The notes under the pieces: generated by a model
Database searches by the model: none
What the model was told of the DNA's origin: nothing
Seen by the model: the letters and a program-made list of their open reading frames with translations, nothing else
In this document: one piece after another, positions 17,833-64,000 of the stretch
Layout: every line of letters starts with the position of its first letter
Numbering within the stretch: position 1 is the first letter of the stretch
NCBI RefSeq assembly: GCF_006345805.1
Contig: NC_043008.1
Coordinates: 12,524,001-12,588,000 of the forward strand
From: Octopus sinensis
Taxonomy: Eukaryota
Direction of reading: 5' to 3'
Length of the DNA stretch: 64,000 nucleotides
Position numbers and translations under genes: made by a program

Positions 17833-19465
17833 ATGGTTAAAGCTATTGATAGCATTAGACTGGGAAATGTGTAAAGATTATAGCCGTTGCACTACTTCCT
17901 ACAAATTTTAACAAAATTTCCATTTTGATAACAAAACATGGTAGGGGTACAGTCAATTGCTTGAACAGCTATCAAACCTGAAGTGAAAAGGGCAAATAAA
18001 AGGGGACAAAATAATCTAATCCGAAAAAAAGGGAGTTAAAGAATATTTCAAGAGAGTTGAACGACAGAAGGTCTTCAGAGAAGAAACCCTCCTCAGGCAA
18101 GTATTTTAGCTCTTCTTACACTCTAAAGGGGCTAGGTTGCATGCTTGTTATGACCCCTGGATGCCCATCTGCTGACACTTTTTAGCTGCTTAGGTAAAAA
18201 AAGGTCAAGTTACATTCTTGAGTCATAGTGACTCAAAAGGGCCAGTTTCCTGCTTTCCATGACATATATATTTCCCACCCCCCTGGATGGGGTGCGAGTC
18301 CAGAGCAGGATTAACTCACTTTTGCCAGCTGAGTGGACTGGATCAAGACCTAAAACAATGCAAAGTGCATTGTGACTAGCGATGTATATCATCTGATAGT
18401 CTGGTCGATACCATAGTACCATGATATATTTTTGTACTACATCTCTCTTTGTTTATGATAGCTGCTTCAAGAAAACAAACAAAAAAAAAGAAAGAAAAAC
18501 GTGAAATGAATCTGAGACAAATGAATAACAGAACATATAAGAAGAATCGGTTTTATTCTGAGACCCTAAGTTACCTTAAACATTGTGGATGGTTACTAGG
18601 GAATATTTTTGTGGTTCAGGCAGAAACTTTGACAGGTTACTGAGCCATGTTGTCTCAGATCATTTTGTGATAAGTATTACATGGTTCACAATTGAGCAAT
18701 TGAACATCCCATTTTATTCTCAATAAATGATGGATGAATCAGTAATAAGTTAGGATAAATGTATTGCCTTCTCTGTAAACATTTCCCAAATGACTCTTAT
18801 TCATATCTGTCTTTCAGACTATAAACTCCATTTAAATCTATAAACTCTGGTCCTTGTATATTTGTGTATTTAATATAGATCAAATAGAGTGACAAATGGT
18901 ATGGCCTTCTGCAAAGTATTATACATTGCTTAATTATCTTTCTCTCAATTCTGAATCCAAATTCCTTTGTGATTGTCTTTGTCTTTCAGGATTGATATAA
19001 TATGTGCCTATATATGCACTGCAGTTGATTCAATTTGAACCTGTGTTCTAGCATTATTTATCATAGACAATATACTGAAAACAGATGACATTCTAAATGA
19101 TATTGCTTTCTCCACTCTCAATAATTTAGGTGGCTGAGTAGATAAGAATTAAAATGATCAATTTGAAATTTAAGGGAAATGATGTCTAACCCTTAGCATT
19201 CAGAAGCTAGCATGGCCAAATTTCATAACTCTTAAAAGGTCCACTCGACTAAGCTATAAAGAGGAACCACTTAACAAGCAGTAGCCATTCAGTAAATTTC
19301 GGTAAATGTTTTATTAGAATGCAAATCAATGCTTTCTATCCCGCTTTACATTCTGAGTTCAAATTCTACTGGAGTCAACATGCCACTTATCCTTTCGGGG
19401 TCGATAAAATAAGTACCAGTTTAACACTACGGTTGATGTAATCAACATGGCCCCTCCTCCACTAT

Positions 19466-19552
19466 GGCATACAGCATAGTGGTTAAGAGTGTGGGCTACT
19501 AACCTTAAGATTCCGAGTTCAATTCCAAGTGGTGACCTGAATAATAATCATG

Positions 19553-19589
<37 letters not shown>

Positions 19590-19937
19590 TATTAATAATA
19601 ATAATTATTATAATAATAATAATAATAATCATAATGATAATAATAATCATAATGATAATAATAATAATAATCATAATAATAATAATAATAATCATAATGA
19701 TAATAATAATCATAATGATAATAATAATAATAATCATAATAATAATAATAATAATAATAACATCGAAAAATACCTTAGGAATGAGAACCCGGTTCGAAAT
19801 TTCCCCAAGAACACCTGATGAAGGCTGGAGGGTATATCAGCTGAAACGTTGTGTTGACAACAAACAAGATGAGGATAAATATCTGTCAAATGTAAATAAA
19901 GTAAATAATGTAAATAATGTAAATAATGTAAATAATG
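19466..19937 (+). mobile_element. tRNA-headed, hammerhead-bearing non-autonomous element (family H), monomer
   Basis: TAGTGGTTAAGAG (A box) and GAGTTCAATTCC (B box) at 19466-19540; (AAT)n at 19541-19760; HHR at 19810-19855; (AATAATGTA)n tail. Confidence 0.75.
19810..19855 (+). ncRNA. Minimal type-I hammerhead ribozyme motif
   Basis: AACAC-CTGATGA-A-GGCTG(gagggtatat)CAGCT-GAAA-CG-TT-GTGTT: stem I, core, stem II, palindromic ACGT stem III, GUU site. Confidence 0.65.
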
Positions 19938-19984
19938 ACTTTCCCACTGTGTTATATATAAACTTATTGTCTATACTTTCTGAT

Positions 19985-26472: not shown

Positions 26473-27201
26473 CATTATTATTATTATTATTATTCTGTGA
26501 CTATGAACAGCTTCAATAAATCCCTGGCCTGACAGTTCTGTGGTTGGTGGGTGCGGCTGGCTTGATACATAAACTCAACAGGCATGATTCCACTGTCAGC
26601 TAGGCTTTTGGTCCTAGACATGCGTAGATCTACAACGTACTTCAGTCAGAACATTTTAATATGTGGATGACTTGTAGACTTATGTTTTTGCTGCTAATGG
26701 TGCATGTAGAATGGATCCAGCTATCAGCCAAATCTTTCATGCGTATCGACCCTCTGCCCGCCTTTCATCGGGAAAAGTTAAACAATTTTCCTCTATCTTC
26801 TGGTGGTGATGGTGAAAATATTGTATGGGGGACACATTTCAAAGGATAGAAGGCATTTTTGCTTTCAACATATTTTTTTTTATACATAAGTCCTTTAGCT
26901 CTTGGAGATAAGGTCAAACAATTGTCATGCTAACGAGGACTAATGAGCCAGAAACATGTCCAAGACTGTTTTCTTATCTCCAGACAATAAGCCTCTCCTT
27001 TTCCTTCATGGTATTCTTTTCTTCTTTTCTTCTTTTACTTGTTTAAGTCATTTGACTGCAGCCATGCTGGAGCACTGCCTTGAAGGGTTATAGTCAAACA
27101 AATCTATCCCAGGGCTTATATTTTAAGCCTAGTACTTATTCTATCAGTCACTCTCACTGAACCGCTAAGTTACAGGAAATGTAAACACATCAACACCACT
27201 T

Positions 27202-27346
27202 ATTTACATTATTTACATTTGACAGATATTTATCCTCATCTTGTTTGTTGTTAACACAACGTTTCGGCTGATATACCCTCCAGCCTTCAATAGGTGTCAC
27301 GGGGGAATTTCGAACCTGGGTTCTCACTTCTAAGGTATTTTTCCGA

Positions 27347-27400
<54 letters not shown>

Positions 27401-27630
27401 TATTATTATGCCTGGAATCGAACTCAGAATCTTGGGGTTAGTAGCCTGTGCTCTTAACCACTAAGCCCATGGGCATTAGAACCCAGGTTTGAAAATTGCC
27501 CCAGGACACCTGATGAAGGCTTGAGAGTATATCAGCTGAAACGTTGTGTTAACAACAAACAAGATGAGGACAAATATCCGTCAAAAGTAAATAATGTACA
27601 TAATTCCTTATCTCTTAAATATAGAACTGT
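27202..27630. mobile_element. Family H head-to-head inverted dimer with 13-bp TSD
   Basis: Minus arm about 27202-27469; axis GCCCATGGGC at 27465-27474; internally deleted plus arm to 27630; TSD ATCAACACCACTT / ATCAACATCACTT. Confidence 0.8.
27505..27550 (+). ncRNA. Minimal hammerhead motif (right arm)
   Basis: GACAC-CTGATGA-A-GGCT..AGCT-GAAA-CG-TT-GTGTT; the left-arm copy at 27253-27298 (-) has a mutated core (CTATTGA). Confidence 0.55.
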
Positions 27631-28699
27631 ATCAACATCACTTGTTAATCAATGAAATGGGAACAAAGACATAAAGACACACACAGACATATACATGGTG
27701 GGCTTCTTTCAGTTTCCATCTACCAAATCCACTCTAAGGCTTTGGTCAGCCCAAGGCTATAGTAGAAAACACTTGCCCAAGGTGCCACACAGTGGGACTG
27801 AACCCAGAACTATGTGGCCGAGAAGCAAGCTTCTTACCACACAGCTGTTCTTAATTCCTGAGATCATCTCTCTTTCTCAACTGGAATTGGTCTTAATTGT
27901 CATTTGGTAATTATGATACATTCTCTAGAGGTGGAAATGATATTTAATAAATGAAGAATTTATGTTACACGGCATTTGACATATCCCTATATTTGTCTGT
28001 TCTTCAAATTCCTGCCAGTAGTCAACTTTGATTAATTTCTTTAGAGGATCATTTCCATTTAATTTTTGTTTCTCTAGACTAGTTGTCTTCAAATTCCATC
28101 CACTTGAAAATAAAAGTCAGGTGGAGAGAAAAACCGATGCCACCCTTTAAGAAATTTGCTCAAAAGTTGAGGAGGGTGGTAACAATGACCCACATGAAAT
28201 GGCATGCTCTCAGCATGAGCTAGTAGTCTGGAAACTGGAGAACCCAGCTGTGAGAGGGGCCTGGATTAGTGGAGTTTATTGTTTACCTGTAGCTGATTGC
28301 CAACTTCTTAAAACATCTCATTTCATTTCTTTTCAATTCTGATCTTTCTTTTTCTTTCCAATGCCTGTTATTTTCATAATCAATTCTCTGTAAAAACTCA
28401 TTACAAAAAAAAACTCATTAATTTATTTTAGTTTATTTTTTTTTATGATATCTCTTTATCTGTCTTACTTGTTCTTAATAAAAGAAACATAAAAAAAATA
28501 ACAAAAACGATCATTATCATTATTATTGTTGTTGTTGTTATTGTGACAAAATTTGGTGGAAATTTCTCTGCAAACTTAGTTTGTAATTCCGTGATATTCT
28601 TCTATTTGGTGCCATTTCGTTAACGATTTCATTAATGATTTTGGAAATCCATGAACGCTACTTCTTCCTAAATTCTTCATTTTGGTATTTGCAGCTACA

Positions 28700-31490: not shown

Positions 31491-32020
31491 AAGGTGGCGA
31501 TCTGGCAGAAATTTTAGCATGCCGGGTGAAATGCTTAGCAGTATTTCGTCTGCCGCTACGTTCTAAGTTCAAATTCAGCCGAGGTCGACTTTGCCTTTCA
31601 TCCTTTCGGGGTCAATAAATTAAGCACCAGTTATGCACTGGGGTCGATATAATCGACTTAACCCGTTTGTCTGTCCTTGTTTGTCCTCTCTGTGTTTAGC
31701 CCCTTGTGGGTAGTAAAGAAACAAGTATTTCGTCTGCCGCTACATTCTGAGTTCAAATTCCACCAAGATCGACTTTGCCTTTCATCCTTTCGGGGTCGAT
31801 TAAATAAGTACCAATTACGCACTGGGGTCGATATAATCGACTTAACCCATTTGTCTGTCCTTGTTTGTCCTCTCTGTGTTTAGTCCCTTGTGGGTAGTAA
31901 AGAAATAGGTATTTCGTCTGCCGCTACGTTCTGAGTTCAAATTCTGCCGAGGTCGACTTTGCCTTTCATCCTTTCGGGGTCAATAAGTTAAGCACCAGTT
32001 ATGCACTGGGGTTCGATGTA
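31491..32020 (+). mobile_element. Family-B SINE tandem trimer
   Basis: GTATTTCGTCTGCCGCTAC..GCACTGGGG three times, period about 185. Confidence 0.88.
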
Positions 32021-33005
32021 AAAAAAACTTTATAAGAGGTGTTGAAAGTGTCATCCTTCACTTTCAATACATAAGTTGACTCGTCCTTCTACACATGTTT
32101 TGAAATACATTTTGGAGAGTCTGACGTGGTATGGACTGTGTGGAGGTTATGATTGAATCTTTTAGCTTGTTAATGGTTTTCATGCAATTCTTGTATCATT
32201 TCGCCCGGTGTGCTAACGTTTATTCCAGCTCACCATCTTCAATCTATCAATCTATCTATCTATCTATCAATGTATCTATCTATCTATACACACACACGCA
32301 CACACACTTGCACACAAATATACACACACACACACAATGGATTTCTTTCAGTTTCTGTACATGAAATCCACTGATGACACTTTGATCAACATGGGGCTAA
32401 GGTAGAGGTGCAATTTGCCAGACAGTGCAATTGAACCAAAGACTCCATAGTTTGGAGACAAGCTTCCTAACCTCTTAGCCATTCTTACACTTTGATGCAG
32501 TAGATCATAGTTTTACAAAGCGAAACAAAAATCAGAAAAAAAAAAATTTTTTTCATTTTATCAAAACTTTGGTGTTGTTACTAAAATTGATTATTACAAC
32601 TCCTTTCCAATAATCTTTTGACAAACGCTAGAAACTTTGAAAATTATAAAACAAAATCATACCCATAATGTTACTCGGATAATTTTCTTTAAATAAGGGA
32701 GAGTGCATGATACATATTAAGAAATGTGAATTAGTAAGCTTAAAAAAATAGGGACAAACTTTTAAAAATGAAATATCTTTATTTGCGAAAATTAATCTTG
32801 ATTGGCAATCTTCAATTCTCAGTCATAACCAGTCTCACTGTTTGCTGCTTTGTTCTGTGGAAAACTTGGGAAATTTTGCACACTAGAATATAGTTCCAAA
32901 ATATGGAATGCACCGTCAAATCTATAAAGAAAATTCTGAACGATTTACATTTTCGAAATGGAATTGAAATCTTTCTATCCATTAAGAGGTAATATTTATT
33001 CCTTT

Positions 33006-37615: not shown

Positions 37616-37841
37616 CTAAAAGAAAATCTCCATGAATTCAACACCTGATGAAGAGCAGAGATCAAATTGATCGAAACAATGTGGAGAATTTAAATATATC
37701 GCAAAAGAGGAAGTTAACAGTCTGATTCAATGGCACCAATTGGGTGGAACCAAAATGACTATACCAAAAACATCACATACCCTACTTCATCCCATCCTTT
37801 CTGGTCTCTTTCAGTATATTCTTACAATGAATATCTTTGAA

Positions 37842-41989: not shown

Positions 41990-42170
41990 TTTGTCCCCTG
42001 TCTTCCCTTCTCGGGATCTTTCCTTCTCCTATGTTTCTGACGAAGAGCTCCACTCGAAACGTCAAACCCTCCTTCTTCCCTTCTTTCCTGAGCGTCCAAT
42101 AATACTTTCTTTGTTCCACGTCCTTGCGTCGTTTTTTTTTGTTTTTGTTTTCTTGTTTGGATTAACTTTA
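41990..42170 (+). mobile_element. Penelope-like terminal-repeat remnant within (TA)n
   Basis: Carries an HHR motif; pyrimidine-rich; flanked by TA microsatellites. Confidence 0.6.
42033..42067 (+). ncRNA. Minimal type-I hammerhead ribozyme motif
   Basis: GTTT-CTGACGA-A-GAG(ctcca)CTC-GAAA-CG-TC-AAAC; GUC site. Confidence 0.65.
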
Positions 42171-62690: not shown

Positions 62691-63476
62691 GAGAGTTATA
62701 AAGTCTGGTACATCCCCTGTTCTCCATTTCTTTTTGCTTTTCCCCTATCCTTTGTCTTTCTATGCGTACAATTTCTGTTTCCAGATGATATAAATATGAA
62801 GAAAAATGAACGTTTTTTACATTACCTTTTTGTATTGTAATCATATCTTCAGGTGTAACTTAGAAACACACACAGACACACACATACAGACGACAATATT
62901 CGATTAGCTCCTTCCTCGGGGGATCAAGTTACAGATCTGTTTTGTCTTAAAGCTATGATCTAATCACTGTTAGTCTACGCCTCTGTTCAGCATGTTTATT
63001 TCAAATGGCCAAAATATTTCCGCCAAGAGATGCAAATCATCATTATCCTTGTCACATTATTGAAGAATTCAGACTTCTGCTTCACGTTTTTTTGCAATAT
63101 CCCTAGCAATAACATCTGTTAATTCTTCACAGGCCACCCATACGCTGTAATTAATCTAACAACATTAATCTTTTTTTTTTCCTGTCAAAACACGAAGAAC
63201 ACATTATGTCTCACACCACCAATAATGCATCAATTTTCTTATATAATTTCCATGAAATTCAATAAGAGAATTACAAGGAAGAAGTTGTATTCTAACTGTT
63301 AGAGTTGTCATTGTATATAACAAGTCTGCAACAGTACATACACACTTCAGCATCTGACCTGAGTGCTCGTGGAAGCTACAATGTTTTCTGATATAGAGAA
63401 TGTATATATATTTACGATGTATACATGAATGTTTGTAATATTATATCATGATTAGTTCAAAACACATCTTAGCAAT

Positions 63477-63678
63477 ACAGTTCTATATTTAAAAGATGAG
63501 GAATTATTTAGATTATTTACATTATTTACATTTGACGGATATTTGTCCTCATCTTCTTTGTTGTTAACACAACGTTTCGACTGATATACCCTACAGCCTT
63601 CATCAGGTGTCCTGGGGAAATTTCGAACCTGGGTTCTCATTCCTAAGGTATTTTTCAATGTTGTTGTCTTTATTATTA

Positions 63679-63725
<47 letters not shown>

Positions 63726-63869
63726 TATTATTATTATTCAGGTCACTGCCTGGTATTGAACTTGGAATCTTGGGATTAGTAGCCCACACTCTTAACCACT
63801 ACGGCATATGCCCATGCACATATAGCTACTAACCCCAAGATTTTGAGTACGATTCCAGGCAGTGGAATC

Positions 63870-63914
<45 letters not shown>

Positions 63915-64000
63915 GTAATAATAATAACATCGAAAAATACTTTAGGAATGAGAACCCAGGTTTAAAATTTCCCCAAGACACCTGATGAAGCTGAAACCTT
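63477..64000. mobile_element. Family H head-to-head inverted dimer, running to the window end
   Basis: Minus arm 63477-63814; axis ATATGCCCATGCACATAT at 63806-63823; partly deleted plus arm. Confidence 0.8.
63566..63611 (-). ncRNA. Minimal type-I hammerhead ribozyme motif
   Basis: Reverse complement: GACAC-CTGATGA-A-GGCTG(tagggtatat)CAGTC-GAAA-CG-TT-GTGTT. Confidence 0.65.

What the first reader, a model, noticed from the sequence alone, without database searches (positions are those of the whole stretch)
19466..19937. Family H: tRNA-promoter SINE-like element with a built-in hammerhead ribozyme
Seen: A/B boxes around a tRNA-like anticodon loop (CT-ACT-AA), a length-variable (AAT)n spacer, a conserved block containing stem I/CUGAUGA/stem II/GAAA/palindromic ACGU/GUU, and an (AATAATGTA)n tail; five arms at three loci. 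Established: minimal HHRs with palindromic stem III characterise Penelope-like element (PLE) terminal repeats and are thought to cleave as dimers; tRNA heads characterise SINEs. Inference: a Pol III-driven, self-cleaving, PLE-mobilised non-autonomous retroelement (SINE/retrozyme hybrid). I do not know of a description of this combination, but I cannot search.
Basis: partly seen in the sequence, partly recalled or inferred. Interest (0 to 1): 0.8.

Follow-up and report, generated by a model that had tools for sequence, protein, structure and literature searches.

The report
Retrotransposon with a tRNA-type promoter
The short repeat is the end-repeat of a protein-coding Penelope-like jumping gene that carries a tRNA-derived promoter and a hammerhead ribozyme motif, and its copies suggest the gene was likely transcribed by the polymerase that normally makes tRNAs.

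Summary
It is the pseudo-LTR (pLTR) of an autonomous Penelope/Poseidon-type element (RT + GIY-YIG) in this genome. The tRNA-like head follows the ORF stop in 29 of 30 endonuclease-selected loci. The unit runs straight into the ORF's 5' part in 8 of 30 N-terminal-selected loci. The ORF starts at ATG 19781 and reads through the hammerhead; the 9-bp 'tail' is in-frame NNV codons. Copies carry PLE signatures: 53 of 85 insertions are inverted pairs, with a ~35-bp tail on one arm in 48 and on both in none. Two findings point to Pol III. First, 27 of 40 arms that reach the head's 5' end stop at the tRNA +1 position (p~1e-24). Second, the 2.5-kb sense strand has no TTTT run, where 3.4-4.7 are expected. 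Short and ORF-linked copies form no separate subfamilies. There are about 27,000 arms, about 6% decayed; RNA reads show only read-through. Pol III/HHR SINEs (schistosome Sm-alpha) and PLE hammerheads are known; my searches found no tRNA-promoter PLE.

The parts
19464..19540 (+). tRNA-derived head of the pLTR, starting at the tRNA +1 region; A box 19472-19482 (T8>C in this copy), B box 19517-19525
   Evidence: both boxes intact in 67 of 129 heads spanning them, column majority fits both
19540..19760 (+). (AAT)n spacer, locally expanded; 14-1171 bp between head and body in 43 arms, some with nested insertions
19781..19945 (+). 5' start of the PLE ORF (ATG 19781) read through the hammerhead; same frame as the 391-aa natural ORF piece in L249
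   Evidence: the N-terminus of P0001 (54% identical relative) keeps TPDxG...PKRCV at the hammerhead core
19810..19855 (+). minimal type I hammerhead (stem I 5 bp, CUGAUGA, bulged A, stem II 5 bp, GAAAC-GUU, palindromic ACGU); predicted cut after 19850; this copy has C11.1>U
   Evidence: matches min-HHR features in PMC4209133; stem II varies with pairing kept in 7 of 8 distinct metagenome homologues
19889..19937 (+). 9-bp repeat = in-frame Asn-Asn-Val codons; contains the first (tail-less) 3' end site
   Evidence: 29 of 30 measurable arms have lengths differing by multiples of 3
27200..27467 (-). tail-less arm (head from position 11) of an inverted pair; 11-bp TSD with one mismatch at 27189-27199 / 27631-27641
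27472..27632 (+). 5'-truncated arm carrying the ~35-bp tail
63475..63815 (-). complete pLTR arm with tail; 8-bp TSD at 63468-63475, repeated beyond the window end
63825..64000 (+). inverted tail-less partner arm, hammerhead stem II deleted, continues past the window
   Evidence: L121

Best explanation
The repeat is a solo pseudo-LTR of an autonomous Penelope/Poseidon-type retrotransposon, and its tRNA-derived A/B boxes likely served as an RNA polymerase III promoter for the element. Shown: the unit [tRNA-like head-(AAT)n-ATG-hammerhead-NNV repeat-tail] lies on both sides of a ~2.5-kb RT+GIY-YIG ORF in full-length copies; copies insert as PLE-type inverted pairs with a one-sided tail and 7-14-bp TSDs; 5' ends pile up at the tRNA +1 position; and the sense strand has no TTTT. 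Inferred: Pol III starts 0-10 nt upstream of the tRNA +1 position in the upstream pLTR and reads head, hammerhead and ORF to the next pLTR. As in the Anolis Poseidon, the element's protein nicks both target strands and starts reverse transcription internally at two sites about 125-135 and 165 nt into the ORF. Priming in the first pLTR runs to the RNA's 5' end and leaves a 330-400-bp SINE-like copy such as this one. Priming in the second pLTR gives copies that extend into the ORF. The hammerhead is predicted to be inactive as a monomer and dispensable for insertion; if it cuts (as a dimer or protein-assisted) it removes the start codon. The copies examined are decayed fossils.
For: pLTR identity: head right after the stop in 29 of 30 EN-selected loci; tail-to-ORF junction in 8 of 30 N-terminal-selected loci; full layouts in L243 and L242; RVT_1 over cut-off; 42% identity to an 836-aa Anolis protein and 54% to P0001, against 27-28% to the genome's Neptune RTs. 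PLE insertion pattern: 53 of 85 unique insertions inverted, tail on exactly one arm in 48, on both in 0; 3' ends bimodal at body 137-166 and 177-186; TSD >=7 nt in 37 of 65 against 5.5% in shuffled pairs. This matches PMC8557442 and PMC11167929. Pol III: 27 of 40 arms reaching head positions 1-8 stop there, against a background of 0.2-0.4% per nt (p 7e-25); ends at -11 to +3 of tRNA +1; boxes kept while the cloverleaf is lost; 0 runs of T>=4 in 2,486 majority columns, against 10 in 3,845 for three Neptune families and 9 in 2,166 nt of three metagenome PLE stretches; codon-aware expectation 3.4-4.7, P(0) 0.03-0.004.
Against: No direct transcript evidence. Raw RNA reads (X24, another coded organism, strandedness unknown) cover both strands equally, 88% run on into unlike flanks, and no start or end pile-ups appear at the head or the cut site. 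The T4 test rests on one family with P only 0.004-0.03; one Neptune control is also partly depleted (1.15 observed vs 2.2-3.1 expected per kb), and L383 has 0 runs in 471 nt. A short palindrome overlaps the head start and fold-back joints occur, so part of the hotspot could be an RT artefact, although about 12 of the 28 head-start arms show no inverted partner at the junction. Pol III RNA is uncapped (established knowledge), so how the ORF was translated is unexplained. There is no compensatory covariation among copies. No intact ORF was found among loci L181-L261; the longest stop-free piece is 432 aa.
Confidence: 0.68

Rival explanations
1. Pol III starts at the head but makes only short RNAs from solo or downstream pLTRs, which the PLE protein mobilises in trans like a SINE; the ORF mRNA comes from Pol II read-through.
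For: The 5'-end hotspot and intact boxes fit equally well. Short copies far outnumber long ones: pLTR depth is 100-1000 times ORF depth in X15, and 2,372 vs 371 first-look candidates. It avoids translating an uncapped RNA.
Against: It does not explain the absence of TTTT across the ORF. No subfamily of short copies has diverged from ORF-linked copies. Full-length copies L243 and L245 also begin at the head.
Confidence: 0.2
2. The tRNA piece is a passenger (an old SINE head captured in the 3' UTR). Transcription is by Pol II from the pLTR, as in Drosophila Penelope, and the hotspot marks a Pol II start or an RT stop/fold-back at the palindrome.
For: D. virilis Penelope has a TATA-less internal promoter like those of LINEs (abstract of PMC2377424). 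The palindrome at the head start makes symmetric joints in some pairs. One EN-selected copy (L183) lacks the head.
Against: The start falls where a type-2 Pol III promoter would put it. Most head-start arms join unrelated flank or an inverted arm that starts elsewhere. Boxes are kept while stems are lost. T4 is absent.
Confidence: 0.1
3. It is an independent non-autonomous SINE/retrozyme that self-cleaves and borrows a PLE's enzymes.
For: Many copies have exactly this size and layout; schistosome Sm-alpha is a precedent.
Against: The entire unit is part of the autonomous element. There is no separate lineage. Copies span the cut site. Tandem multimers, which retrozymes need, are rare: 2 of 85 insertions have a second same-strand body.
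Confidence: 0.02

Closest known systems
Poseidon of Anolis carolinensis (PAc), Penelope/Poseidon clade (PMC11167929)
   Same: RT + C-terminal GIY-YIG; the ORF start overlaps the pLTR hammerhead; two internal 3'-end sites define a 30-40-bp tail; 42% RT identity to an 836-aa Anolis protein (P0006), which I infer to be PAc from its length and N-terminus.
   Different: No tRNA-type promoter is mentioned in the parts read. Here ATG lies 70 nt before the cut (26 nt after the start codon in PAc), the ends lie further into the ORF, and there is an (AAT)n leader and NNV repeat.
Minimal PLE hammerheads (Cervera and De la Pena 2014, PMC4209133)
   Same: Short helix I, bulged base before stem II, G10.1-C11.1, palindromic 15.2-16.2, mostly single dispersed copies and opposite-strand pairs.
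   Different: Paired here with A/B boxes; cleavage triplet GUU; activity untested.
Schistosome Sm-alpha / Sj-alpha hammerhead SINEs (seen only through PMC6765202 and PMC2770079; the originals were not held)
   Same: tRNA-related Pol III promoter followed by a hammerhead in a high-copy short retroposon.
   Different: Those carry canonical, active hammerheads, often occur in tandem, and are described as non-coding with no named partner; here the unit is the pLTR of a coding element.
Non-LTR retrozymes (PMC7229834; bioRxiv 10.64898/2026.07.22.740005)
   Same: Hammerhead-bearing short repeats related to PLE pLTRs.
   Different: Defined by tandem units giving circular RNA. The preprint has 0 occurrences of tRNA or Pol III. 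Here copies are solo or inverted.
Cassandra, Helenus and Ajax (PMC10886601; abstract start and passages)
   Same: Small-RNA-gene-derived sequence inside a terminal repeat.
   Different: Those are non-autonomous LTR elements; this is an autonomous PLE.

Membership tests
EN+ Penelope-like element (Penelope/Poseidon) | single ORF with RT and C-terminal GIY-YIG | tested here: met
   RVT_1 40.5 bits over cut-off 29.6; natural pieces align along P0001/P0006 from N-terminus to EN; the EN piece had no Pfam hit at E 0.1 and is recognised by motifs and homology; all copies seen are broken
EN+ Penelope-like element (Penelope/Poseidon) | pseudo-LTRs / partial tandems | tested here: met
   L243, L242, L191; 8 of 30 tail-ORF junctions
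EN+ Penelope-like element (Penelope/Poseidon) | inverted 5'-truncated partner and 30-40-bp tail at one end only | tested here: met
   53 of 85 inverted; tail on one arm 48, both 0, neither 5
EN+ Penelope-like element (Penelope/Poseidon) | hammerhead in the pLTR | tested here: met
   (motif only)
EN+ Penelope-like element (Penelope/Poseidon) | clade placement; no CxxC linker of Neptune/Nematis | tested here: met
   By similarity, no tree built: RT 42% (293 bits) to the Anolis protein vs 27-28% (82-110 bits) to Neptune RTs; linker lacks the Cys motif seen in the Neptune loci
Minimal type I hammerhead | core C3-A9, G12-A14, stems I and II, palindromic 15/16, NUH triplet | tested here: met
   column majority of 257 body alignments; 84 of 205 keep the core, 30 of 205 keep core + G10.1-C11.1 + CG palindrome
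Minimal type I hammerhead | covariation of stems | tested here: inconclusive
   None among copies. In 10 metagenome hits (8 distinct stem II sequences) 7 have 2-4 further Watson-Crick pairs beyond those fixed by the pattern; the pattern fixed part of the stems
Minimal type I hammerhead | self-cleavage (dimer or protein-assisted) | not testable with these tools
   no ends at the cut site in RNA reads; monomer MFE is not the hammerhead fold in 2 of 3 window copies
tRNA-derived SINE | tRNA-related head with A and B boxes | tested here: met
tRNA-derived SINE | non-autonomous lineage distinct from its partner, sharing only the 3' end | tested here: not met
   the whole unit is in the autonomous element; no diagnostic variants
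tRNA-derived SINE | 3' end is an A-rich or simple-repeat tail | tested here: not met
   3' ends are two sites inside the ORF start
tRNA-derived SINE | transcribed by Pol III | tested here: inconclusive
   indirect only: 5'-end hotspot, T4 absence; RNA reads uninformative
Non-LTR retrozyme | head-to-tail tandem units with hammerheads | tested here: not met
   second same-strand body in 2 of 85 insertions
Non-LTR retrozyme | abundant circular RNA | not testable with these tools
   a circle junction would look colinear with the pLTR

The most novel reading that the evidence does not exclude
An autonomous, protein-coding retrotransposon transcribed end to end by RNA polymerase III: a Penelope-like element that captured a tRNA promoter in its pLTR, purged every TTTT from a 2.5-kb ORF, translated an uncapped RNA, and left tens of thousands of SINE-like solo pLTRs. 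This would be a direct route from PLE to hammerhead SINE.
Probability: 0.45. Interest if true: 0.82.

Novelty: new variant of a known kind. Interest (0 to 1): 0.62.

Why it matters
PLE promoters have been examined in very few elements (the one I found is Drosophila Penelope, with a LINE-like internal promoter), and Pol III is regarded as a maker of non-coding RNA (established knowledge). A coding retroelement driven by a tRNA promoter would be unexpected and gives a natural test of translation from uncapped Pol III RNA. The copies also act as a fossil 5' RACE and confirm, on genomic copies, the internal-priming model shown in vitro for the Anolis Poseidon. The family suggests how hammerhead SINEs such as schistosome Sm-alpha could arise as solo pLTRs, and warns that some repeats annotated as tRNA-SINEs may be PLE ends.

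Tried and rejected
Rfam and ARAGORN found nothing relevant. A Pfam GIY-YIG search of G000 plus 20 further loci returned mostly Neptune-type PLEs; none of 50 shares the family's sequence. The partner was found instead upstream of head-selected copies. tRNA parent: 15 distinct tRNAs from the 30 fetched of 46 listed; best Ala(TGC) and Arg(TCT), no assignment. Within-family covariation: none; G10.1>A does not pair with C11.1>U (p 0.32). Separate SINE subfamily: not found. RNA: no holder on record as RNA among indexed runs (no evidence either way); X21 and X23 laid nothing, which is no proof of absence. DNA around the closest relative P0001 could not be obtained (none; only itself), so whether relatives carry a tRNA head is open. 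Ten metagenome contigs with a similar hammerhead, 4 with PLE protein matches, show no B box in up to 500 nt upstream. A relaxed ARAGORN run gave only noise. A TSD at the finding's own locus is at best a degraded 8-mer (19459-66 / 19944-51) and is not claimed. Earlier scan notes: nothing returned. Ferbeyre 1998 and Lunse 2017 were not held. Dfam and Repbase could not be consulted.

Full report
Observation. Rfam and ARAGORN do not recognise it. The window lies in a 2.72-Gb genome that I take to be octopus-like from its repeat content; no call names it. An exact 28-mer of the body occurs 4,666 times against 0 for the control. It is exact in 16 of 94 arms not chosen on it, giving about 27,000 arms. 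Forty evenly placed 10-kb stretches held 3 loci with a body and 1 head alone, which is compatible.

The partner. A GIY-YIG search returned several Neptune-type PLE families with their own minimal hammerheads, none related to this family. The link came from head-selected copies, several of which have the end of a GIY-YIG domain about 30 nt upstream of the head. Of 30 loci selected on that endonuclease, 29 carry the head directly after the stop, and upstream they read into an RT. Of 30 loci selected on the ORF's N-terminal part, 8 have the body and tail joined directly to it. L243 (G000:C2:104074000-104079300) reads head-(ATA)24-body-ORF-stop-head; L242 adds an inverted truncated arm in front. 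The RT passes the RVT_1 cut-off. It is 54% identical to an unnamed 847-aa protein, 42% to an 836-aa Anolis protein and 27-28% to the genome's Neptune RTs. The repeat is therefore the pLTR of a Penelope/Poseidon-type element.

The ORF begins inside the pLTR. A natural 391-codon piece in L249 runs from the ATG (19781 in the window) through the hammerhead, the 9-mer repeat (NNV codons) and the tail into the RT. The relative P0001 keeps TPDxG and PKRCV where the core is encoded while the loop between differs. Frangieh et al. (PMC11167929; parts 1-2 of 4 read) report the same overlap in the Anolis Poseidon. They also report internal RT initiation at two sites that bound the tail, extension of both target strands, and uncleaved RNA as the substrate.

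Insertion anatomy. I took the first 90 of the 4,666 pattern hits (all on contig C1, biased to less decayed copies). After removing 5 rows that repeat an insertion, 53 of 85 are inverted pairs, with the tail on exactly one arm in 48, neither in 5, both in 0. The 3' ends are bimodal. Of 65 units whose outer edges could be set, 37 have a >=7-nt flanking repeat against 5.5% in shuffled pairs (42 of 65 with a wider window), so each pair is one event. Craig et al. describe these PLE features (PMC8557442, passages).

Evidence for Pol III. The 5' ends of the 90 arms fall as 13 in the body, 20 in the spacer, 13 at head 9-77, 28 at head 1-8, and 16 in the ORF. With one duplicate dropped and 3 head-deleted arms set aside, 27 of 40 arms reaching head 1-8 stop there, against 0.2-0.4% per nt elsewhere (p 7e-25). 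Refined ends lie at -11 to +3 of the tRNA +1 position, where type-2 Pol III promoters initiate (established knowledge). The column majority fits both boxes, and 67 of 129 heads keep both, while the cloverleaf is lost. The ORF sense strand has no run of four T in 2,486 majority columns at 23% T. Three Neptune families have 6/1,790, 3/1,037 and 1/1,018, and three metagenome PLE stretches 6/1,218, 3/477 and 0/471. Codon-aware nulls expect 3.4-4.7 runs (P(0) 0.03-0.004). Head, body and tail majorities also lack TTTT.

Evidence against, and limits. One Neptune control is partly depleted too. A short palindrome overlaps the head start and some joints are fold-backs. RNA reads from another coded organism (8,590 laid, about 6% of the runs read) cover both strands equally, 88% run on into unlike sequence, and show no pile-up of ends. 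That is read-through of old copies and says nothing on the source element. Copies are about 6% from the majority with CpG decay, with no compensatory pairs, and the core is no better kept than the flanks. Only 30 of 205 keep a complete hammerhead; the finding's copy has C11.1>U and A-box T8>C. Translation of an uncapped RNA is unexplained.

SINE or pLTR. Head-start copies (28) and ORF-linked copies (41) show no diagnostic column among 263 and the same divergence, so there is no sign of a separate non-autonomous lineage. Internal priming in the first pLTR of a head-started RNA accounts for the short copies without one; trans-mobilisation of short Pol III RNAs remains possible.

The hammerhead. 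Its features match the minimal PLE type of PMC4209133 (parts 1-2 of 4 read), where monomers were inactive. Ten metagenome contigs carry the same core with different stem II sequences that stay paired in 7 of 8 distinct cases; 4 of the 10 have PLE protein matches and none has a B box upstream.

What is known. Pol III promoter plus hammerhead is described for Sm-alpha/Sj-alpha (PMC6765202 and PMC2770079, passages). A PLE origin of animal retrozymes is proposed in bioRxiv 10.64898/2026.07.22.740005 (parts 1-2 of 5 and term search; its supplements are closed). D. virilis Penelope uses a LINE-like internal promoter (PMC2377424, abstract). Nine searches (listings, then passages of PMC6962438, PMC10886601, PMC8967140, PMC7761336, PMC7229834, and part 1 of 3 plus a supplement search of PMC13282606) found no PLE with a tRNA-derived promoter. 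The library lacks most subscription papers and Repbase/Dfam, so the family may already be catalogued without this reading.

Verdict. A real feature and a member of the Penelope/Poseidon PLEs (confidence about 0.95), with a tRNA-type promoter in its pLTR that probably drove Pol III initiation (about 0.85 for any Pol III start, 0.45-0.65 for transcription of the whole ORF). New variant of a known kind; interest 0.62.

Noticed in passing
window 42000-42170 (+): A second minimal-hammerhead repeat (CUGACGA core at 42037, GAAAC-GUC) ending in TA repeats; also in L039, L042 and L191. Probably the 3' end of another PLE family.
   Followed up: partly
window 37645-37690 (+): Degenerate hammerhead-like motif with stem I ACAC/GUG; no relative found in the PLE loci.
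   Followed up: partly
L038, L047, L051-L053 (e.g. G000:C6:82398301-82401564): An abundant Neptune-type PLE family with 780-aa open frames in several copies and the U3-A8 hammerhead variant reported from Schistosoma in PMC4209133; looks young.
   Followed up: partly
L054-L060: Copies of the same Neptune family with a different 3' region made of tandem repeats containing TGACGTC and ATTGG motifs, which look like Pol II promoter elements (recalled motifs).
   Followed up: no
window 19344-19450 and about 14 other places (e.g. 31540-32021 in tandem): 3' part of another very abundant SINE-like family; the finding's copy sits right after one.
   Followed up: no
L244 (G000:C1:74999500-75004600) beyond about 3000: An RTE-like LINE reverse transcriptase fragment (my reading of the translation) next to a near full-length copy of the element.
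   Followed up: no
P0001: The closest relative has the lowest Phe content (2.2%) of 120 homologues (mean 4.3%), close to this element's 2.5%; it may share T-run avoidance.
   Followed up: partly
L122, L125, L242: Inverted pairs in which one arm starts at the head and the other extends into the ORF, as if both pLTRs of one RNA, or two RNAs in a dimer, were primed in one event.
   Followed up: no
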